Below are positions 2,710 through 10,065 of a stretch of DNA of 28,179 bases, piece by piece. The notes below the pieces were generated by a model that was not told where the DNA came from, searched no databases, and saw only the letters and a list, made by a program, of their open reading frames with translations. Made by a program: the position numbers and the translations under genes. This stretch comes from a virus (taxonomy: Duplodnaviria; Heunggongvirae; Uroviricota; Caudoviricetes). Position 1 is the first letter of the stretch, and the number at the start of each line of letters is the position of its first letter. The stretch is taken from positions 1 to 28,179 of the IMG/VR virus record IMGVR_UViG_2778261154_000006; one strand, 5' to 3'.

Positions 2710-2750
2710 CAGCGGGTTTATCACCGGTTATTTTTAACGAGGACTCCGTT

Positions 2751-2993
2751 ATGAGAAAACACACAGCAGAACAGGTAAACGAATTTCTGCAGGGATATTA
2801 CTTCGATAACGAAATTAATCCCCGCGCCAGAAAAACACACTTCGAAGTAATGAAGTGCGGAATATTCAGCGTCCGCAACACCCTGTTTTGTTCAAAAGAT
2901 ACGGGAGCCAGCGAGGACCTTAAAGAACTTAACCGGATGGCGAAACAATTAATGGATGGCATGGTTCCCGAACCCGCAATAATTACGGAGTAA
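2751..2993 (+). CDS. hypothetical early protein
   Basis: 80-aa ORF with GAGGA SD-like sequence upstream. Confidence 0.4.
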   Translation: MRKHTAEQVNEFLQGYYFDNEINPRARKTHFEVMKCGIFSVRNTLFCSKDTGASEDLKELNRMAKQLMDGMVPEPAIITE

Positions 2994-2998
2994 TCACG

Positions 2999-3184
2999 AT
3001 GAATTTCAGTTATTCATTCAGTGTACCGGAGTCGTTATTTGTTATCACACTGATTGCAGCCGCAATGTTTTTTGCCATCTGCATACTGACACTTATTGAT
3101 ACATGGCGGGAAATACGCGACAGACGTCGCCAGAAAAAAAACGGGATGCATACAACGCATTCATTCAGCACAAAGAAGACGTAG
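2999..3184 (+). CDS. small single-pass membrane protein
   Basis: 61-aa ORF with GGAG SD 9 nt upstream. Hydrophobic stretch LFVITLIAAAMFFAICILTLI followed by a basic tail RDRRRQKK. Confidence 0.4.
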   Translation: MNFSYSFSVPESLFVITLIAAAMFFAICILTLIDTWREIRDRRRQKKNGMHTTHSFSTKKT

Positions 3185-3281
3185 AGCGTAAAGCACGCCG
3201 CCGTCTTTAGTTAATTAACCGGTTTCGTTAATACACCGCTCACGCGGCGGGATTCGCACAATCTGAATAAGGGAAATAAAA

Positions 3282-3704
3282 ATGATTAATCCGACACTCA
3301 CCCTCAAAGATAAAGCCCTTGCGGGCGCAATGTTTTTACGCAACTACGCCGCAATGATGGCTGACACTGACAACCCGATTATGGTGCTGTCAGTGGAGCC
3401 TCACCTTATCGCCGCAGACGCAATTGAACAGGTGGTACAGGAAAACACCTGTCTGAGAAATCAGCTTGCCACCCTTCAGACAGCAGCTGACCCGGCAAAG
3501 GAAAGTGCTGAACACACCTGCCACACCACATTCATCAAAGGGACCCGCGTATGTCTGAAAAACAGTCCGCAGCAACGCGGAACGGTCGTTGACACCCGCA
3601 CCAGTAGCCCCGCCATTGACCGGGTTTTCGTCCGTTTCGATTCCCCCTTCGAGGAAGACCGCCGGGTAAAGACCAGAAACCTGGAAATAACCCCCGACAA
3701 ATGA
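3282..3704 (+). CDS. hypothetical early protein
   Basis: 140-aa ORF with AAGGG SD upstream. Preceded by a 97-bp intergenic region containing the palindrome GTTAATTAAC. Confidence 0.45.
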   Translation: MINPTLTLKDKALAGAMFLRNYAAMMADTDNPIMVLSVEPHLIAADAIEQVVQENTCLRNQLATLQTAADPAKESAEHTCHTTFIKGTRVCLKNSPQQRGTVVDTRTSSPAIDRVFVRFDSPFEEDRRVKTRNLEITPDK

Positions 3705-3958
3705 AGCTGATTATCCCTGCGCGACACCGCAAAAACCGGATGAAGCCAGGGGGAAAGCCGGAGCGGGCAGCAAGGGCGGCATACCGTCGCCTGCTGAAGG
3801 GGGACCGGTCACACGTGCGACGGCTGGAGCGGGTACCGCCCGCCCGCGTCATCAACGTCATGTACCGTTACCGGCTGTTAAGTCTGGACGAAGGCCGGAC
3901 ATGGGTACTGCTTAACCATAACGAATACGTGAAGAGGATAAGACGATGTTACAGATGA
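3701..3958 (+). CDS. hypothetical small basic protein
   Basis: 85-aa ORF, start overlapping the upstream stop. Arg/Lys-rich. GC-rich region, so weak support. Confidence 0.3.
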   Translation: MKLIIPARHRKNRMKPGGKPERAARAAYRRLLKGDRSHVRRLERVPPARVINVMYRYRLLSLDEGRTWVLLNHNEYVKRIRRCYR

Positions 3959-4476
3959 AATTTAAGCCCTGCTTTATTGACGCATTCCGCAACGGACGCA
4001 AGACCACATCCCTTCGCCCGACGGGGTTTGATTGCTACCAGGCGGGCCAGGAGTCAGCAGAATATTTTCATGAAGACACCCTGACCCGCAACATCGTTCT
4101 TCCCGATTACAGCGCCGGCGGTACCCTGGTTTTTGAGGAGGGAACCACATTTACCCGCGCATCAGACTTTGCCGGACTCCTGAAAAGACAGCCCTACCGA
4201 CAGTATGACAACATTCATCTGGTCACAGAAAACAAGAACGGCGAAACCGTGCCGTTCGCCGTGGCCTTCATTGCCGATATCGGTGTAATACAGGGCCGCC
4301 AGATAACCGATGAAGTGGCCGTCAGGGACGGCTTTAACCCTGAAAACCATCCCCGCGACGAACTCTTTGCATTCATGCGGGACACCTGCCACATAGAAAA
4401 CCCCAAAAACGAAACCTACTGGCGGTACACCTTCACCCACATCGTGATGTTGTCGCAGTGGAGGGCTGACGCATGA
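3946..4476 (+). CDS. hypothetical protein, possibly ASCH/PUA-like fold
   Basis: 176-aa ORF. N-terminal FIDAFRNGRKTTSLRP loosely resembles the ASCH-domain G-x-K-T-x-E/S-x-R signature. Sits upstream of the Dam methylase. Confidence 0.4.
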   Translation: MLQMKFKPCFIDAFRNGRKTTSLRPTGFDCYQAGQESAEYFHEDTLTRNIVLPDYSAGGTLVFEEGTTFTRASDFAGLLKRQPYRQYDNIHLVTENKNGETVPFAVAFIADIGVIQGRQITDEVAVRDGFNPENHPRDELFAFMRDTCHIENPKNETYWRYTFTHIVMLSQWRADA

Positions 4477-4712
4477 AACCCGCCATTATCTGCATTCTGT
4501 GCGAGAGCACTGTCACCGGCGGCCATTACCGCATCAGGGAACGCCACATCAACCCTGACCGTTCGCTGCTGGACAACATCACCGGCCCGAATGATGAACG
4601 CGTGATCTGCCTGAACGACGGCTCGCAGTTACGCGTGCGCAATATCCGGCGCGAAATCACGCTCGAACCCACCCCATTCACACGCGGGAAAAAACCGGAG
4701 AGTGACGCATGA
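4473..4712 (+). CDS. hypothetical protein
   Basis: 79-aa ORF, translationally coupled between neighbours (overlapping start and stop). Confidence 0.35.
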   Translation: MKPAIICILCESTVTGGHYRIRERHINPDRSLLDNITGPNDERVICLNDGSQLRVRNIRREITLEPTPFTRGKKPESDA

Positions 4713-5668
4713 AAGGTATTCTGAACCAGCGCTCACCGCTCAAATGGGCGGGCGGCAAATTCAGTATCATGCCGCAGCTGCGCGAATATTTACCCAAAGC
4801 CGCCTGCCTGATCGAACCCTTCGTGGGCGGCGGCTCGGTCTTCATGAACACGGATTATGACTATTACGTATTGTGTGACAGCAACCCCGCGCTGATTAAT
4901 TTCTACCAGCAACTGACGACCAACACCACGGAATTAATGGATCGTGCATGGTCACTCTTTAAGGATGGCGGCACACCGGAAGCCTACAAACGCCATCGCG
5001 GAGCATTTAACACCATCGCGCTGGCCACCGACAGATTACGCGGAGAATCCCTGGAATGGGCAGCGCTGTTTCTGTACCTGAACCGCCATTGCTTTAACGG
5101 CCTGTACCGCACCAACCAAAAAGGCGAATTCAATGTGCCATTCGGCAAACACCGCATGCCTTATTTCCCCTGCCAGGAAATGCGCCTGTTTGCTGATAAA
5201 GCCAACGAGACCCGGACCCGCTTTATTCACGCGGATTTCCGTACAGCCTTCACAATGCCGGCTGAGATCCACCGTTTTTCTTCGGTGCACGGCGATATCG
5301 CCATTTACTGCGATCCGCCCTACCTGCCACCGAACGGTAAAGAGGCGTTCACTCACTACAACGGCCGGGCATTTACCCGCAAAGACCACCGTGACCTTGC
5401 GGCGCTCATGATGAACGCCTGGCAACGTTACGGTATCCACCCGGTGGTCTCCAACAGTGACACCTCCGAAACCCGGCAGATCTATTCCTCGTTTGAGCTG
5501 CACACCCTGAGCGTTCGCCGCGCTGTGGCTGCCAGCAGCAGTGCACGCCAGCAGGCAAAAGAGGTGATTGGTGTTTATCCGCCAGCCCGTGAGGTCCGGA
5601 TCCGGGATGTCAATGCGGGCTGGCTGTCTCACATTCCCGCTCCACACCCCACCACGGAGATCATGTAA
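4709..5668 (+). CDS. dam: DNA N6-adenine methyltransferase, Dam family (GATC-type)
   Basis: LKWAGGK near the N-terminus, EPFVGGGSVF SAM-binding motif, DPPY catalytic motif (YCDPPYLPP), and FLYLNRHCFNGLYRTNQKGEFNVPFG closely resembling E. coli Dam. Confidence 0.9.
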   Translation: MKGILNQRSPLKWAGGKFSIMPQLREYLPKAACLIEPFVGGGSVFMNTDYDYYVLCDSNPALINFYQQLTTNTTELMDRAWSLFKDGGTPEAYKRHRGAFNTIALATDRLRGESLEWAALFLYLNRHCFNGLYRTNQKGEFNVPFGKHRMPYFPCQEMRLFADKANETRTRFIHADFRTAFTMPAEIHRFSSVHGDIAIYCDPPYLPPNGKEAFTHYNGRAFTRKDHRDLAALMMNAWQRYGIHPVVSNSDTSETRQIYSSFELHTLSVRRAVAASSSARQQAKEVIGVYPPAREVRIRDVNAGWLSHIPAPHPTTEIM

Positions 5669-5979
5669 TGGCCATTATCTATATCGCCGGCCCCATGACG
5701 GGGAAGCCTGATTTCAACCGCACCGCCTTCACCATGACGGCGACCCGCCTGAGGATGCAGGGTCATACCGTACTCAACCCCGCAACACTCCCTGACGGGC
5801 TGAGATACAGGGACTACATGCTTATCGGGAGCGCCATGCTGCACTGTGCCGATGTGATTTACCTGCTGGATGGCTGGGAGGACTCGCCGGGGGCAAAAGA
5901 GGAACACGCCACCGCCCTGAAACTGAATCTGATCATCTCCACACCAGAAAGCCGTAAGGAGGCCAAATCATGTTTCTGA
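5668..5979 (+). CDS. DUF4406-like protein (nucleoside 2-deoxyribosyltransferase-like fold)
   Basis: 103-aa ORF whose start overlaps the dam stop (ATG within TAATG). N-terminal IIYIAGPMTG resembles the DUF4406 family (family assignment from memory, unverified). Confidence 0.5.
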   Translation: MAIIYIAGPMTGKPDFNRTAFTMTATRLRMQGHTVLNPATLPDGLRYRDYMLIGSAMLHCADVIYLLDGWEDSPGAKEEHATALKLNLIISTPESRKEAKSCF

Positions 5980-6524
5980 AACCAATGGGGGGACCAGGTA
6001 AAGCACCGAAGCACGTCAGTGCCTGGACACAACAGGAAGACGAACTGCTTATCTCGCTTTATCAGGATCACAGCACATGGCAAATGGCTGAACGACTTCA
6101 GCGAACCCGCAGCGCAGTGATGCACCGGATTCTTTTTTTACGTAATCGCGGGTTGATTGGTCGCAAGAGAAAAGCACCGCTGAGTGCAGAAGCCATCGCC
6201 TTTCTCACCAAAAACCGTCACGCAAAAACCGCACGGGAACTGGCCCGGAAGGCGGGATGCAGCGAGTGCACCGTGAGGTACACACTGCATAAACGGGGTT
6301 ACAGCCTTAAGAAATGCGGCGAGAGCCACCATTGCACCAGATACAGCGATCGTCTGGCTGAGCTGGTTACGGAGCTACGCGACAGACGCAACATGACGTT
6401 CTGCATAATCGCGAAACACATCAACATCACGATGCAAATGCACATCAGCGATGATACGGCGTTTCACCTCTACAACCGCCGGACCGCCGCCGACGCCCTG
6501 TTGTACGAACTGCTGCCGAACTGA
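5970..6524 (+). CDS. putative DNA-binding protein with two HTH-like segments
   Basis: 184-aa ORF. Segments WTQQEDELLISLYQDHSTWQMAERLQRTRSAVMHRI and AKTARELARKAGCSECTVRYTL look HTH-like. Followed by an intrinsic terminator. Confidence 0.45.
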   Translation: MFLKPMGGPGKAPKHVSAWTQQEDELLISLYQDHSTWQMAERLQRTRSAVMHRILFLRNRGLIGRKRKAPLSAEAIAFLTKNRHAKTARELARKAGCSECTVRYTLHKRGYSLKKCGESHHCTRYSDRLAELVTELRDRRNMTFCIIAKHINITMQMHISDDTAFHLYNRRTAADALLYELLPN

Positions 6525-6644
6525 GTGATCATCATGCACACACAAAAAAACCGCTTGCCATGTCGCAATCAGTCAGGTTACATTTCCGCTGCACCTCATA
6601 AAACGGGTGCCGGGATTGAGACCCCGCTGACAAACGTAGCGCAC

Positions 6645-6665
6645 AACCGCGCCAGCGGTTTTTTT
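6645..6665 (+). terminator. rho-independent terminator (6-bp GC-rich stem, GCCA loop, 7-T run)
   Basis: AACCGC-GCCA-GCGGTT followed by TTTTTTT, about 120 bp downstream of the stop at 6524. Confidence 0.55.
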
Positions 6666-6844
6666 GTGCGTACCGTATCGTCACACCTTTTTCGCATCAG
6701 AATTATGGTGGGGCGTACAGGGCCGACTTCGGTCGGGCCGGGTTCTGCGTTTGCCGGTAGTCTCAACCCTGTACGTCTCACCACCCCGAGTTTGAGACCT
6801 CTGGATGGTGAGTTTTCAAAACTTACACACGTAGAGGCCACACC

Positions 6845-7072
6845 ATGGCAAACCGCAAACAACAGCGCGCATACGCTGCGCGTCGTCACATCCGGACTGA
6901 AATCAACCGCAGACTTTTCCGCGCCTTCCGCGTCGCGCATATCATGCACATCAATATGCTGCATGAGCGCAGTCACGCACTGTCAAACACCTATTCCGCC
7001 GCTGTTTTCAGCTATCTGGCGGATGATCTGCGCGGGCTGCGGGACCTCATTAACCAGCACTACCACCACTAA
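6845..7072 (+). CDS. hypothetical small basic protein
   Basis: 75-aa ORF with GAGG 7-8 nt upstream. Lies after the structured non-coding region. Weak support. Confidence 0.3.
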   Translation: MANRKQQRAYAARRHIRTEINRRLFRAFRVAHIMHINMLHERSHALSNTYSAAVFSYLADDLRGLRDLINQHYHH

Positions 7073-7129
7073 TCAACATCCCGCATCCATACGCGGGAGG
7101 CTTCCGCACGTCCGTTTCCGGAGGTTCTC

Positions 7130-7543
7130 ATGAAGAGCGTTAAGGGACTTTCAGATATTCAGGATTTTTTTAACTGGATGTGGGCGGTGGATCCACGCCT
7201 CGCTTCCCGTCTCAATGACCTGCACGACTATTACCGCCGCGCCTGTAAACAGGCCGCCAGCAGCGCCACCACATACGGTGAGTTTTCCTTCACCGTTGAC
7301 GACCGTTACCGCGTGGACGTCAGAGACCAGAACAACAGCCTGGAGCTGGGCCTGTTCCACATCAACGGACTCGACAGCAGTGTTATCAGCTGGTCATCGT
7401 CAGAAATGGTGCTCGTTCTGGAAATGACCACCCACAGCGTGGTCGTGAAAGGGATTAAAACGGCAGAAGACTTTATCGCTGAATACCAGCGTCTTCTTGT
7501 GCTGTACCGGGCTGTATTTCAGAAGGCAACAGCAGGGGAGTAA
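7130..7543 (+). CDS. hypothetical protein immediately upstream of the replication gene (P2 B-position)
   Basis: 137-aa ORF with GGAGG SD upstream, ending 5 bp before the A gene start. Confidence 0.45.
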   Translation: MKSVKGLSDIQDFFNWMWAVDPRLASRLNDLHDYYRRACKQAASSATTYGEFSFTVDDRYRVDVRDQNNSLELGLFHINGLDSSVISWSSSEMVLVLEMTTHSVVVKGIKTAEDFIAEYQRLLVLYRAVFQKATAGE

Positions 7544-7548
7544 GCGGA

Positions 7549-10065
7549 ATGAGCCATCACAACACACACCTGGCGTACCCGTGGAATGCCCCGCTGCCGG
7601 TTATTGATCCTGAGACGTTCGGCAGAGCGTTACCGCAGAAGCCAACCGCATTACAACGGGCAATCCGGGACTACCTCACCGAAGACATTCGCACTGAGGC
7701 CCGGCTGGATGAAGAAACCGTGGTCTTCCTGACAACCACGGACAAAGGCAAACAAATTAATTCACACCTTCACCGGGACGAAGAGCGGCAGACAAGGCTG
7801 GATAAGCTGGCACGACACAGACGCGAAAATCCGCCAACGGAGGTATCGGAAGCGATAGCCGAACTTCGCGCCCTGCCACCGTTTCTTGCCAGCGTGCTGA
7901 TCCGCGATCTGGCACGCCTGAACCGGAAACAGCAAAGCGCCCGCAGCAAAGGTGTAAAAAACAATAGCGCATACGTGGCCGATAACTTCGTTCGCCGTGG
8001 ACTGCGCGCGCGCCTGAAACGTATCGAACGGGTTAACGACCGCTTTGCAACGCCGGCATTCAAATCCAGTGTCATACGCCATCGCCTTGAAGAGCTGCTC
8101 ATGCTGCCGCAACTCAGCCGCGACAAGATCCAGCGCATCGCCACACTGACTGCGCAGTTCTTTACCGCAGAATTTGAACGCATATGTGATGAAGTTCCTG
8201 AACAGACCGGAAAGAATAATGACAGCCCGGTTATCTGGCTGCTGGCCTACCAGAAGATGGCACGCATAGCCTTAACGCTGGGCGTGATCCCGCCATACTG
8301 GCCGGAACTCGAAATCAGGCACAACCGACGCACACCGCCGGACCCTGAACTGATACCGGGTGCGGTACTGCGCATCACCTGCGCGACCTGGTGGAACAAC
8401 CAGTTACGCCACATCGCCGATCTCTGGCGGGAGGAGTTACTGCGTGCCGCCGGCAGAGTGTCACGTAAACAATCCCCTTATATCAGCCATGAATCACTAC
8501 TGGAGTTTCGCGAGAAGCGCCAGCGCACCCGTGATTTTCTCAAAAGCTGGGATATTGAAAACGAAGACGGCGAGCGCCTGAGTCTGGAGGAAGTGTACTG
8601 GGCGGGCCCGGGGAATCCACGCAACCGCCGCAATGAAATGATGGTCTGCGTCAGAGGGATGGAGATGGTAGCCGAATTGCGGGGTGACGTCGCATTCTTC
8701 ATCACGGTAACAGCCCCTTCCCGCTTTCACAGCGTGAACGAAGACGGCAGCCTGAACCCGAAATACAACGGTGCCACTGTACGCGATACCAGTGATTATC
8801 TGGTTTACGACTTCTTCGCAGCCGTAAGAAAAAAAATCAAAAAAGAGGGGCTGGGCTGGTACGGCGTGCGAACCGCTGAGCCACACCATGACGGCACGCC
8901 ACACTGGCATATGCTGGTATTCACGTCCCCTGAGAACGCAGAGCACATCATCGAAATTATGCGCGACGCAGCGATTAAATCAGATCGCCACGAACTGGGG
9001 GACGATATTTCGCCGCGCTTTGAATGCGAGAAGATAGATCCGGAAAAAGGGTCGCCGGCAAGCTATATCGCAACCTATATCGGTAAGAACCTGGACGCCA
9101 GCGCCTTCCACAACAATGATCCGAAAACCGGAAAACCTTACGTCGATAAGGAATCCGGGAAAACCATGGCGGAAACCGTGGAGAACGCCATTGCATGGGC
9201 GAGCCTTCACCGCATACGTCAGTTCCAGTTTTTCGGCATTCCGCCCCGCCAGGTGTGGCGTGAACTCCGCCGCCTTGCAAGCCAGATGGGGCGCAACCCG
9301 GCATCACCGAAGCGACTCGATCATGGCGATATTGACGCCATTATGGCCGCCGCAGACGTAGGGTGTTTTGCCACCTACATCATGAAACAGGGTGGCGTGC
9401 TTATTCCACGCAACCAGTATCTGGTCCGCACCGCATACAAAACCGCAGACGAAGCTAATGACTACGGCGAATTCCCGCAGCGCATCTACGGAATTTGCGC
9501 CCCGTCACTCGGGGAACGGTACACCATCTGCACCCATCCGGATGAGTGGAAACTGGTCAGAAAAGAATCTGACGCCGACAACAGCACGGACGAGGGTTTT
9601 GACCTTCGGGGCGGCTTCGCCGCACCTTGGACTCGTGGCAATAACTGTCCCGGTGACGAAAAAACAGCCGGAACCGGCACAGAAAACAGGCAGCGTGGGT
9701 CGCGGCTGACGCTTCCGGAAAGCGGCCTGGCGCACTGGTTGCAGACGTTAACCCGTCACGAGCGGAAACAGCTCATCAGACAGCTTAAAAATCAGCCGCC
9801 CACCACGGATACCGGACAAAATAACACCAGACCAGCATCAGACACCCCTGTCAGGGTGGAGGTTGTCGTGCCTGTCGACACCACGACCATCGCACAAATC
9901 ACCCGCGAACTCGACGCGCTGGGTGTGCAGCTGCCTGACGCAGCCATTATTTCCGTGAGTAACGGTGCCCGCGTTCGCCCGGGCGACGGGCGTATCGCGT
10001 ACTGGAGCGCCACAACCCGCCGTATCGTCATCACACAGGAGTCGTCAGCGGAGGTAAGATCATGA
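7549..10065 (+). CDS. A: rolling-circle replication initiation endonuclease, P2 gpA family (HUH nuclease)
   Basis: 838-aa ORF. HUH motif in GTPHWHMLVF, and a Y-x-x-x-Y pair in SYIATYIGKNLD as in the gpA active site. Size and position match P2 A. Confidence 0.88.
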   Translation: MSHHNTHLAYPWNAPLPVIDPETFGRALPQKPTALQRAIRDYLTEDIRTEARLDEETVVFLTTTDKGKQINSHLHRDEERQTRLDKLARHRRENPPTEVSEAIAELRALPPFLASVLIRDLARLNRKQQSARSKGVKNNSAYVADNFVRRGLRARLKRIERVNDRFATPAFKSSVIRHRLEELLMLPQLSRDKIQRIATLTAQFFTAEFERICDEVPEQTGKNNDSPVIWLLAYQKMARIALTLGVIPPYWPELEIRHNRRTPPDPELIPGAVLRITCATWWNNQLRHIADLWREELLRAAGRVSRKQSPYISHESLLEFREKRQRTRDFLKSWDIENEDGERLSLEEVYWAGPGNPRNRRNEMMVCVRGMEMVAELRGDVAFFITVTAPSRFHSVNEDGSLNPKYNGATVRDTSDYLVYDFFAAVRKKIKKEGLGWYGVRTAEPHHDGTPHWHMLVFTSPENAEHIIEIMRDAAIKSDRHELGDDISPRFECEKIDPEKGSPASYIATYIGKNLDASAFHNNDPKTGKPYVDKESGKTMAETVENAIAWASLHRIRQFQFFGIPPRQVWRELRRLASQMGRNPASPKRLDHGDIDAIMAAADVGCFATYIMKQGGVLIPRNQYLVRTAYKTADEANDYGEFPQRIYGICAPSLGERYTICTHPDEWKLVRKESDADNSTDEGFDLRGGFAAPWTRGNNCPGDEKTAGTGTENRQRGSRLTLPESGLAHWLQTLTRHERKQLIRQLKNQPPTTDTGQNNTRPASDTPVRVEVVVPVDTTTIAQITRELDALGVQLPDAAIISVSNGARVRPGDGRIAYWSATTRRIVITQESSAEVRS

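What the first reader, a model, noticed from the sequence alone, without database searches (positions are those of the whole stretch)
3946..5979. Early-operon DNA-modification cluster: ASCH-like gene, Dam methylase and a DUF4406-like gene
A Dam-type methylase with intact motifs I and IV is flanked upstream by a possible ASCH/PUA-like protein and overlapped at its stop by a small protein beginning IIYIAGPMTG. Together they could form an anti-restriction or DNA-modification module beyond simple GATC methylation.
Basis: inference. Interest (0 to 1): 0.45.

Follow-up and report, generated by a model that had tools for sequence, protein, structure and literature searches.

The report
Prophage Dam methylase with linked helper genes
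A rare gene cassette in a P2-like E. coli prophage joins an ordinary GATC DNA methylase to three small partner genes, two of which look like nucleotide-cleaving enzymes; one of them (DUF4406) turns out to sit next to DNA methylases of four different families in many enterobacterial phages, so the link is real, but nothing suggests a new kind of DNA modification.

Summary
Window 3946-5979 holds four translationally coupled + strand genes.

They lie in a ~3.2 kb variable region (about 2726-5980) of a P2/P88-like prophage early operon. Only 4-5 of 5,426 complete E. coli genomes carry it; its relatives are mostly in Salmonella.

- **Dam:** it keeps motifs I and IV and the EcoDam GATC-contact residues.

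In 80 enterobacterial-type phage loci, 28 of 38 nearby methylase genes (D12, PF05869, MT-A70, C5) lie within about 220 bp of DUF4406. All are on the same strand. This linkage is absent in Vibrio/gut-phage and actinophage clades, where DUF4406 is instead fused to dNTP pyrophosphohydrolases.

No base-modifying enzyme other than Dam is present. The partners' roles remain inferred.

The parts
3282..3704 (+). 140-aa protein of unknown function (phrog_20495). It is the first larger gene of the rare variable region and overlaps the next gene by 4 nt.
   Evidence: It co-occurs with the cassette in L005-L008 at 50-99% identity.
3701..3958 (+). ParE-like toxin-domain protein (85 aa). It overlaps the ASCH gene start by 13 nt. 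It is context and is not shown to be part of the methylase function.
   Evidence: Pfam PF24732 1.1e-09. RefSeq calls it a 'ParE family toxin-like protein'. It holds the same position in L086.
3946..4476 (+). ASCH-fold (PUA-like) protein of 176 aa. It has a YqfB-type G-x-K19-x-x-[S/T]22-x-R24 motif, invariant D128-G-F, and a ~55-residue poorly modelled insert (about residues 25-80).
4473..4712 (+). 79-aa protein of a very small family with an invariant INPDRSLLDNItGP core. Function is unknown. A possible ubiquitin-like (beta-grasp) C-terminal half is a lead only.
   Evidence: phrog_20193. 41 clusters, all Salmonella, E. coli, Shigella or Serratia. About 10 true clusters among 1.84 billion representatives. 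hhalign to ubiquitin gives Prob 67% and 48%. It always lies between the ASCH gene and Dam.
4709..5668 (+). Orphan D12-class DNA adenine-N6 methyltransferase (Dam family, 319 aa), predicted to target GATC.
   Evidence: Pfam 1.1e-52, TIGR00571 1.9e-70, PADLOC 'orphan methyltransferase' 4.8e-80, 2g1p 8.2e-56. EcoDam K9, N120, L122, R124, N126, N132 and P134 are identical in the alignment; Y119 becomes F and R137 becomes K.
5668..5979 (+). DUF4406 protein (103 aa), a minimal member of the nucleoside 2-deoxyribosyltransferase/DNPH1 superfamily. It is predicted to be a nucleoside-5'-monophosphate N-glycosidase.
5970..6524 (+). SANT/Myb-like HTH DNA-binding protein (184 aa). It belongs to the common phage backbone, not to the rare cassette.
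   Evidence: Homology to more than 1,000 E. coli prophages resumes at about window 5981.
6645..6668 (+). Terminator-like hairpin plus T-run. It is the first such + strand site after the cassette.
   Evidence: Consensus scan only.

Best explanation
This is a rare, horizontally exchanged accessory cassette in the early (lytic) operon of a P2/P88-like E. coli prophage. It is transcribed and translated as one unit and is built around an orphan GATC-specific Dam methylase.

**Shown**
- Gene structure and overlapping junctions.
- The family and fold of Dam, of the ASCH protein and of DUF4406.
- Conservation of the catalytic-type residues.
- The recurrent ASCH-79aa-Dam trio.
- The tight, repeated juxtaposition of DUF4406 with four methylase families in enterobacterial phages.

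**Inferred**
- *Dam:* on induction it rapidly and fully methylates replicating phage DNA, where host Dam is limiting. This protects the DNA from enzymes that cut unmethylated GATC and from host processes keyed to hemimethylated DNA.
- *DUF4406:* it is an active DNPH1/MilB-type N-glycosidase that cleaves a (probably modified or purine) deoxynucleoside 5'-monophosphate into base plus deoxyribose-5-phosphate. It would act as a nucleotide-pool 'clean-up' partner of the methylase, for example on methylated dNMPs released from methylated DNA.
- *ASCH protein:* it either binds an N-modified base (as an m6A reader) or hydrolyses one as YqfB does. It may act together with the 79-aa protein.

No new DNA base is made.
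For: - **Context:** gpA replication protein, portal, terminase and ogr, plus 99% identity to annotated E. coli prophages.
- **Boundaries:** the rare region is bounded at about 2725 and 5981 and is present in 4-5 of 5,426 genomes.
- **Operon structure:** junctions overlap by 1-13 nt, with no strong internal + strand terminator.
- **Dam:**
- **ASCH fold and motif:**
- **Trio:** conserved across 45-99% identity.
- **DUF4406 fold and active site:**
- **Fusions:** DUF4406 is fused to MazG/PRA-PH-type and dATP/dGTP diphosphohydrolases, which points to free nucleotides as substrate.
- **Methylase linkage:** 21 upstream neighbours are N6A methylases (9 PF05869, two of them fused to a C5 domain; 8 D12; 4 MT-A70) and 7 downstream neighbours are C5 methylases.
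- **Position:** 28 of 38 methylase ORFs within 5 kb lie within about 220 bp, all on the same strand, in at least 8 architectures.
- **Redundancy control:** 10 of 16 methylase clusters at 70% identity, and 6 of 10 at 50%, are adjacent.
- **Other examples:** N15 gp57-gp58; a Brachyspira prophage lists N-6 methylase and DUF4406 consecutively.
- **Literature:** an ASCH/N6A-methylase association has already been noted (PMC4738411). Host Dam is limiting for high-copy DNA.
Against: - No activity has been measured for any protein.
- The methylase-DUF4406 linkage is not universal. Only 3 N6_N4 methylase hits were found among 142 ORFs near DUF4406 in 32 Vibrio/gut-phage loci. No annotated methylase lies nearby in the three actinophage neighbourhoods whose flanks were examined.
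- A methylated-dNMP sanitiser would need to handle both m6dAMP and m5dCMP to explain partners of both base specificities.
- DNPH1's general-acid Asp80 and the second-subunit Ser128 have no secure counterpart in the 103-aa protein.
- The alignments to DNPH1 (E = 0.073) and to YqfB (E = 0.045) are weak on their own.
- The ASCH model is only moderately confident (pLDDT 68), and its acid residue is ambiguous (D128 or E133).
- The loci sampled are the 80 best matches, and many are related.
Confidence: 0.55

Rival explanations
1. **Trigger-blocker module against methylase-sensing retrons.** Phage Dam and Dcm methylases are known triggers of type II-A retrons, whose effectors are NDT-like proteins. 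DUF4406 is itself a minimal NDT-fold protein. It, and/or the ASCH and 79-aa proteins, would be the linked 'blocker' that lets the phage keep its methylase without setting off abortive infection. It could do this by poisoning the effector dimer or by removing the effector's substrate or product.
For: - Dam from E. coli, Salmonella or P1 triggers Retron-Sen2 by methylating GATC in msDNA. racC-recE is a precedent for an adjacent blocker-trigger pair in a prophage.
- Phage Dcm triggers Retron-Ec86.
- Both retrons carry NDT-like effectors.
- DUF4406 has the NDT fold and is adjacent to both adenine and cytosine methylases, specifically in enterobacterial phages.
- The ASCH-79aa-Dam trio is concentrated in Salmonella, the home of Retron-Sen2.
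Against: - DUF4406 keeps a complete catalytic Tyr-Glu pair and phosphate site in 104-105 of 105 sequences. That fits an enzyme of general nucleotide metabolism better than a decoy.
- The family is widespread in actinophages, away from methylases and fused to dNTP pyrophosphohydrolases.
- There is no experimental link.
Confidence: 0.12
2. **No functional link.** The genes are independent 'morons' that accumulate in the same recombination-prone slot of the early operon. DUF4406 is a general nucleotide-salvage or pool-shaping enzyme, and the ASCH protein has an unrelated role.
For: - The cassette lies in a variable slot between conserved backbone genes.
- DUF4406 also occurs next to DnaB helicases (13 loci), lysis genes and nin-type accessory genes.
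- In other clades it has no methylase neighbour.
- The ASCH-79aa-Dam trio occurs without DUF4406, and Dam-DUF4406 occurs without ASCH.
Against: - Within +/-5 kb, methylases are concentrated at the position immediately next to DUF4406: 28 of 38 lie within 220 bp, and 10 of 16 after collapsing at 70% identity.
- Orientation is constant. N6A methylases are upstream and C5 methylases downstream.
- The genes overlap, and the partners come from four distinct Pfam methylase families.
Confidence: 0.2
3. **The first reader's reading.** The three or four proteins together make or process a DNA modification beyond m6A at GATC. For example, the ASCH and DUF4406 proteins would act on DNA bases as a hypermodification or base-exchange pathway.
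For: - NDT-superfamily enzymes can exchange bases, and ASCH/PUA domains recognise modified bases.
- The genes are tightly co-expressed.
Against: - None of the known hypermodification families was detected in the cassette: acyl-, glycosyl- or amino-acid-transferases, hydroxymethylases and transglycosylases.
- DUF4406 keeps the residues that in DNPH1 hold a free 5'-phosphate, and it is fused to dNTP pyrophosphohydrolases. That indicates mononucleotide substrates, not DNA.
- The closest structural match of the ASCH protein acts on free ac4C.
Confidence: 0.07

Closest known systems
E. coli Dam and phage-encoded orphan Dam methylases (e.g. P1 Dam)
   Same: D12 class, motifs I and IV, and the GATC-contact residues. 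It is an orphan with no cognate nuclease in the cassette.
   Different: It scores only 232 bits against the host-Dam equivalog model, whose cut-off is 441. It has a ~26-residue C-terminal extension and is embedded in a fixed ASCH-79aa-Dam arrangement.
DNPH1/Rcl (2'-deoxynucleoside 5'-phosphate N-hydrolase) and MilB/BlsM CMP hydrolases
   Different: It has only ~95 residues and lacks the C-terminal segment that supplies Ser128' from the partner subunit. It has no secure Asp80 equivalent. The substrate is unknown. It is phage-borne and methylase-linked.
YqfB, the ASCH-domain N4-acetylcytidine amidohydrolase of E. coli
   Different: It is 176 aa with a ~55-residue insert. His70 is not conserved. 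Tyr89 is Cys in the window copy. The acid residue is ambiguous. It is phage-encoded and methylase-linked, whereas YqfB is a housekeeping salvage enzyme.
ASCH domains fused to or in operons with N6-adenine methylases (Iyer et al., BioEssays 2016, PMC4738411)
   Same: An ASCH-fold gene sits in an operon with an N6A methylase, where it is proposed to discriminate m6A.
   Different: Here the ASCH protein carries a hydrolase-type Ser/Thr in place of the canonical Glu of the GxKxxExR motif. It is always accompanied by a 79-aa partner.
Phage N15 gp57-gp58 (DUF4406 followed by a C5 cytosine methylase)
   Same: The same DUF4406 family (56% identity) overlaps a DNA methylase gene.
   Different: The partner is a C5 methylase downstream, not a Dam upstream. 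N15 has no ASCH or 79-aa genes there.
racC-recE blocker-trigger pair and methylase-triggered type II-A retrons (Sen2, Eco1)
   Same: A prophage gene that triggers an abortive-infection system is encoded next to a small gene that neutralises it. Dam and Dcm are proven triggers, and the effectors are NDT-like.
   Different: There is no evidence here that any cassette protein blocks a retron. The resemblance is conceptual plus a shared fold class.

Membership tests
Dam family (D12-class N6-adenine DNA methyltransferase, GATC) | Scores above the curated cut-offs of PF02086 and TIGR00571 | tested here: met
   179.7 bits against a cut-off of 22, and 237.6 bits against 114.85.
Dam family (D12-class N6-adenine DNA methyltransferase, GATC) | SAM-binding motif I (FxGxG) and catalytic motif IV (DPPY) | tested here: met
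   F38-V-G-G-G42 and D202-P-P-Y205 in the alignment to 2g1p.
Dam family (D12-class N6-adenine DNA methyltransferase, GATC) | EcoDam GATC-contact residues (K9, Y119, N120, L122, R124, P134). Their roles are taken from my own knowledge of the EcoDam-DNA structure. | tested here: met
   K12, N130, L132, R134 and P144 are identical; Y119 becomes F129.
Dam family (D12-class N6-adenine DNA methylase, GATC) | Methylates GATC in vivo | not testable with these tools
   Needs SMRT or DpnI/MboI assays.
Host-type Dam equivalog (NF008152) | Score above the equivalog cut-off | tested here: not met
   232.5 bits against a cut-off of 441. It is a phage-type paralogue, not the housekeeping Dam.
ASCH / PUA-like superfamily | Pfam PF04266 above the gathering score | tested here: inconclusive
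   The window protein scores 16.1 bits against 21.2. 17 of 30 family members match at E <= 0.1, best 1.2e-5.
ASCH / PUA-like superfamily | ASCH beta-barrel fold | tested here: met
YqfB-type ASCH amidohydrolase | Essential Lys21, Thr24 (Ser tolerated) and Arg26 | tested here: met
   K19 and R24 are invariant, and position 22 is Ser or Thr in all 30 sequences. The correspondence is by motif and fold, not by a significant sequence alignment.
YqfB-type ASCH amidohydrolase | Acid Glu74, plus His70 and Tyr89 | tested here: inconclusive
   hhalign (E = 0.045) pairs Glu74 with E/D133 and Tyr89 with C148, which is Tyr in most relatives. By motif, D128 is the alternative. His70 has no counterpart.
YqfB-type ASCH amidohydrolase | Hydrolyses N4-acylcytidine | not testable with these tools
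   Enzyme assay needed.
DUF4406 (PF14359) within the nucleoside 2-deoxyribosyltransferase / DNPH1 superfamily | Pfam PF14359 above the cut-off | tested here: met
   103.5 bits against a cut-off of 22.
DUF4406 (PF14359) within the nucleoside 2-deoxyribosyltransferase / DNPH1 superfamily | NDT-type Rossmann-like fold | tested here: met
DNPH1-like nucleotide N-glycosidase | Nucleophile Glu104 and partner Tyr24 | tested here: met
   They pair with E79 and Y5 in the hhalign to the PDB-verified DNPH1 sequence. Each is conserved in 104 of 105 sequences.
DNPH1-like nucleotide N-glycosidase | 5'-phosphate site (Ser98, Gly100, Gly-rich loop) | tested here: met
   S73 104/105, G75 105/105, G8 104/105 with the GPMTG loop.
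DNPH1-like nucleotide N-glycosidase | General acid Asp80 and the second-subunit Ser128' | tested here: inconclusive
   No secure equivalent. D43 is present in only 60 of 105 sequences, and the protein ends before the Ser128 segment.
DNPH1-like nucleotide N-glycosidase | Cleaves dNMP to base plus deoxyribose-5-phosphate | not testable with these tools
   Enzyme assay needed.
Phage DNA hypermodification pathway | Presence of a base-modifying enzyme other than a methylase (transferase, hydroxymethylase, transglycosylase, Mom-like) | tested here: not met
   No such family appears in the Pfam, PHROG, NCBIfam or PADLOC scans of the proteins scanned from 3282 to 10065. The 75-aa ORF at 6845-7072 was not scanned.
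Anti-retron blocker linked to its trigger | Neutralises methylase-triggered retron toxicity | not testable with these tools
   Only circumstantial evidence.

The most novel reading that the evidence does not exclude
DUF4406, a minimal NDT-fold protein glued to phage Dam- and Dcm-type methylases in enterobacterial phages, is the phage's antidote to methylase-sensing type II-A retrons (Sen2/Eco1 type, with NDT-like effectors). The ASCH and 79-aa partners may share this role. On this reading, methylase-DUF4406 pairs are trigger-blocker modules analogous to recE-racC.
Probability: 0.12. Interest if true: 0.8.

Novelty: new variant of a known kind. Interest (0 to 1): 0.45.

Why it matters
Phage orphan methylases are usually treated as stand-alone anti-restriction genes. 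Here the methylase comes with fixed partners. One of them, the uncharacterised but widespread DUF4406 family, appeared in 630 phage records and in only three papers in the searched library, none of them about its function. It has a fully conserved DNPH1-type active site and is repeatedly coupled to four methylase families.

This gives a concrete, cheap, testable hypothesis for a domain of unknown function: an N-glycosidase acting on (methylated) dNMPs. If so, DNA methylation may carry a nucleotide-pool or immune-triggering cost that phages pay to offset. If the retron-blocker reading were right instead, it would reveal a new anti-defence class.

Tried and rejected
- **Direct sequence searches against the PDB.** The 176-aa and 103-aa proteins and their family profiles found nothing meaningful. 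Fold prediction was needed.
- **hhalign of the ASCH family to YqfB.** It gave only a 21-column, E = 0.045 match. The catalytic acid therefore stays unresolved.
- **PADLOC.** No defence-system match for any partner protein.
- **Zinc-finger idea for the 79-aa protein.** Rejected: Cys7 and Cys10 are not conserved.
- **Ubiquitin-like lead for the 79-aa protein.** The polyubiquitin E-values are inflated by repeats (5.9 bits per domain). Pairwise probability fell from 67% to 48% with a broader profile.
- **Universality of the methylase-DUF4406 link.** Rejected for Vibrio/gut-phage loci. The three actinophage neighbourhoods whose flanks were examined show no annotated methylase nearby.
- **Tad3 (Thoeris inhibitor) hits near DUF4406.** Ten candidate ORFs were scanned and none was Tad3. 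I dropped this.
- **Literature.** No paper describing DUF4406 function or a methylase link was found. The EcoDam residue paper is not in the library.
- **SAH-nucleosidase idea for DUF4406.** I considered it and ranked it below the dNMP hydrolase. The conserved Ser/Gly loop matches DNPH1's phosphate site, and the fusions are to dNTP pyrophosphohydrolases.
Full report
**What is there.** Window 3946-5979 contains four + strand genes, not three.
- A 176-aa protein at 3946-4476.
- A 319-aa methylase at 4709-5668.
- A 103-aa protein at 5668-5979.

RefSeq annotates the same four genes in a 99%-identical E. coli prophage. Every junction from 3701 to 6524 overlaps by 1-13 nt. These include ATGA overlaps at ASCH/79aa and 79aa/Dam, and a TAATG overlap at Dam/DUF4406. 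A consensus scan finds no strong + strand terminator inside the block. The first terminator-like hairpin follows at 6645-6668. The genes are therefore very likely co-transcribed and translationally coupled.

**Setting.** The window is a P2/P88-like prophage. It carries a GpA replication endonuclease at 7549-10065 (Pfam 3.8e-105). The matching RefSeq record adds ogr/Delta, portal and terminase genes on the other strand. Homology to the roughly 1,400 E. coli genomes carrying related prophages stops at about window 2725, just after a DUF4761 gene. It resumes at about 5981, just after the DUF4406 stop codon. The region in between is a variable insert present in only 4-5 of 5,426 complete E. coli genomes. 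The families of the 176-aa and 79-aa proteins are almost entirely from Salmonella, with some from E. coli, Shigella and Serratia.

**The methylase.** It is a clear D12/Dam-family enzyme.
- Pfam 1.1e-52, TIGR00571 1.9e-70, and 8.2e-56 to the E. coli Dam structure.
- Motif I is F38-x-G-x-G42 and motif IV is D202-P-P-Y205.
- In the alignment to EcoDam, K9, N120, L122, R124, N126, N132 and P134 are identical and Y119 is Phe. From my own knowledge of the EcoDam-DNA structure, these residues read GATC, so GATC specificity is the reasonable prediction.
- It falls below the host-Dam equivalog cut-off (232 against 441 bits). PADLOC calls it an orphan methyltransferase, and no nuclease partner is present.
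- GATC is only mildly under-represented in the window: 91 observed against about 125 expected.

**The 176-aa protein.** Its ASCH assignment is sub-threshold for this protein (E = 0.019). However, ASCH is the only recurrent Pfam match across the family, in 17 of 30 members with a best E-value of 1.2e-5. An AlphaFold2 model has pLDDT 68, with a poorly modelled insert at about residues 25-80. Its best matches are all ASCH-type structures:

YqfB needs Lys21, Thr24 (Ser works) and Arg26 (PMC6972931). The family has an invariant K19 and R24, and Ser or Thr at position 22 in all 30 sequences. Canonical ASCH domains have Glu at that position, which I state from my own knowledge of the GxKxxExR motif. 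The acid residue is unresolved: D128 is invariant, and a weak hhalign match pairs Glu74 with E/D133. The protein is therefore an ASCH-fold protein with a hydrolase-type motif. Whether it hydrolyses something or merely binds a modified base cannot be decided here. An operonic association of ASCH domains with N6-adenine methylases, and a proposed m6A-reader role, are already in the literature (PMC4738411).

**The ASCH-79aa-Dam trio.** Homologues of the 176-aa protein down to 45% identity always sit in the order ASCH, 79-aa, D12 Dam. This holds in the window, L005, L006, L008, L085 and L086. The three genes diverge together. DUF4406 is optional there: L085 lacks it, and L086 has an unrelated 109-aa protein in its place. 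The Salmonella versions add a C5 cytosine methylase just before gpA.

The 79-aa family is tiny, with about ten true clusters among 1.84 billion representatives. Its core INPDRSLLDNItGP is invariant within the close enterobacterial family and variable in the distant relatives. Its cysteines are not conserved, so it is not a zinc finger. A resemblance of its C-terminal half to ubiquitin gives 67% and then 48% hhalign probability. That is a lead only.

- TIR domains after those.

In DNPH1, Glu104 is the nucleophile and Tyr24 is its partner. Ser98, Gly100 and the loop hold the 5'-phosphate (PMC10483697). Across 105 unique DUF4406 sequences of 32-99% identity, these positions are conserved in 104-105 of 105. 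Asp80 and the second-subunit Ser128 have no secure counterpart.

**DUF4406: fusions.** They point to free nucleotides as the substrate. Mycobacteriophage Ejimix gp155 is DUF4406 plus a MazG/PRA-PH-type pyrophosphohydrolase. BFVD contains fusions to dATP/dGTP diphosphohydrolase domains. The most likely chemistry is N-glycosidic cleavage of a nucleoside 5'-monophosphate.

**DUF4406 and methylases.** I fetched 80 IMG/VR loci encoding close DUF4406 relatives (53-99% identity).
- The immediate upstream neighbours include 21 N6-adenine methylases: 9 PF05869 'Dam' (two of them fused to a C5 methylase domain), 8 D12 and 4 MT-A70. The immediate downstream neighbours include 7 C5 methylases.
- I mapped every ORF of these four families within +/-5 kb and found 38, all on the DUF4406 strand. 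Eighteen lie within 60 bp, ten at exactly 218 bp, and only five beyond 1 kb.
- N6A methylases lie upstream and C5 methylases downstream, in at least eight architectures. These include D12-DUF4406-C5 sandwiches and the N15 gp57-gp58 pair.
- After collapsing methylases at 70% identity, 10 of 16 clusters are adjacent. At 50% identity, 6 of 10 are.
- A Brachyspira prophage description also lists an N-6 methylase and DUF4406 consecutively.

The link is clade-specific. In 32 non-redundant Vibrio/gut-phage loci, only 3 of 142 nearby ORFs are methylases. In the three actinophage neighbourhoods whose flanks I examined, the gene sits among replication genes; three further actinophage records were read only for the fusion proteins. 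I found no paper describing this association or any DUF4406 function.

**Interpretation.** The evidence does not support a modification beyond m6A. No other base-modifying enzyme is present, and the partners look like small hydrolases of free nucleosides or nucleotides.

My best reading (confidence 0.55) is an orphan-Dam cassette with accessory enzymes.
- Dam ensures fast, complete GATC methylation of replicating phage DNA. Host Dam is limiting for high-copy DNA.
- DUF4406 removes a (possibly methylated) dNMP from the pool, by analogy with DNPH1's sanitising of hmdUMP.
- The ASCH protein reads or hydrolyses an N-modified base.

These functional steps are inferences.

**The most novel reading the evidence does not exclude.** Phage Dam triggers Salmonella Retron-Sen2 by methylating its msDNA, and phage Dcm triggers Retron-Ec86. 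Both retrons use NDT-like effectors, and the Rac prophage encodes a blocker (racC) next to its trigger (recE). An NDT-fold protein fixed next to Dam- and Dcm-type methylases, specifically in enterobacterial phages, could be such a blocker.

**Verdict.** This is a new variant of a known kind, a phage orphan methylase module. It is of moderate interest, chiefly because it attaches a testable function and a robust genomic association to DUF4406.

Noticed in passing
window 3282-3958: A 140-aa protein and an 85-aa ParE-like toxin-domain protein overlap by 4 nt directly upstream of the ASCH gene. They may be a toxin-antitoxin-like pair carried in the same rare insert. The ParE-like gene holds the same position in a Salmonella relative (L086).
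   Followed up: partly
window 4473-4712 (79-aa protein): The C-terminal half weakly resembles ubiquitin and doublecortin, both beta-grasp folds (hhalign Prob 48-67%). Ten of 17 relatives end in GG-x-x, but the window copy does not. No E1, E2 or peptidase partner was seen.
   Followed up: partly
window 6525-6844: A ~320-bp stretch lies between the Myb-like HTH gene and the next annotated ORF (75 aa, 6845-7072). It holds a promoter-like site (6555-6584) and a terminator-like hairpin (6645-6668). The mechanical 202-aa GTG ORF at 6525-7133 is probably spurious. The stretch from about 6483 is conserved in P88-like phages, and records annotate a 'derepression protein' under the match.
   Followed up: no
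L085 5726-7224 and L086 6037-7565 (Salmonella relatives): These prophages carry a second methylase (C5 cytosine) just before gpA. It is preceded by an HTH protein with faint precomputed hits to GcrA, an m6A-sensitive transcription factor family, as well as to Myb and sigma-70 region 4.
   Followed up: no
L012-L024 and others (IMG/VR loci): In 13 of 80 loci the gene upstream of DUF4406 is a DnaB-type replicative helicase, not a methylase. An 18-member family of 114-206-aa proteins with no Pfam match is the commonest downstream neighbour.
   Followed up: partly
one of L005-L084, downstream neighbour of DUF4406: One neighbour is DUF3850, which I recall as an ASCH/PUA-like domain. Another is a dATP/dGTP pyrophosphohydrolase (PF04447), echoing the ASCH and dNTPase themes. 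The specific loci were not identified.
   Followed up: no
L093-L132 (Vibrio-type and gut-phage loci): Three ORFs within 2.5 kb of DUF4406 match Pfam Tad3 (type I Thoeris inhibitor). This suggests DUF4406 sits in anti-defence gene neighbourhoods in that clade. I could not identify which ORFs they are.
   Followed up: partly
L088 1853-2821 (Mycobacterium phage MalagasyRose gp52) and L004 3998-4534 (Pseudomonas phage MD8 gp42): These are DUF4406 fusions to domains with no Pfam match: a 215-aa N-terminal domain and an ~85-aa C-terminal domain. They might indicate further partners or substrates.
   Followed up: no
whole window: CTAG is very rare (5 sites in 28 kb), as is typical of enterobacterial DNA (own knowledge). 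GATC is mildly under-represented (91 against about 125 expected) and evenly spread.
   Followed up: no
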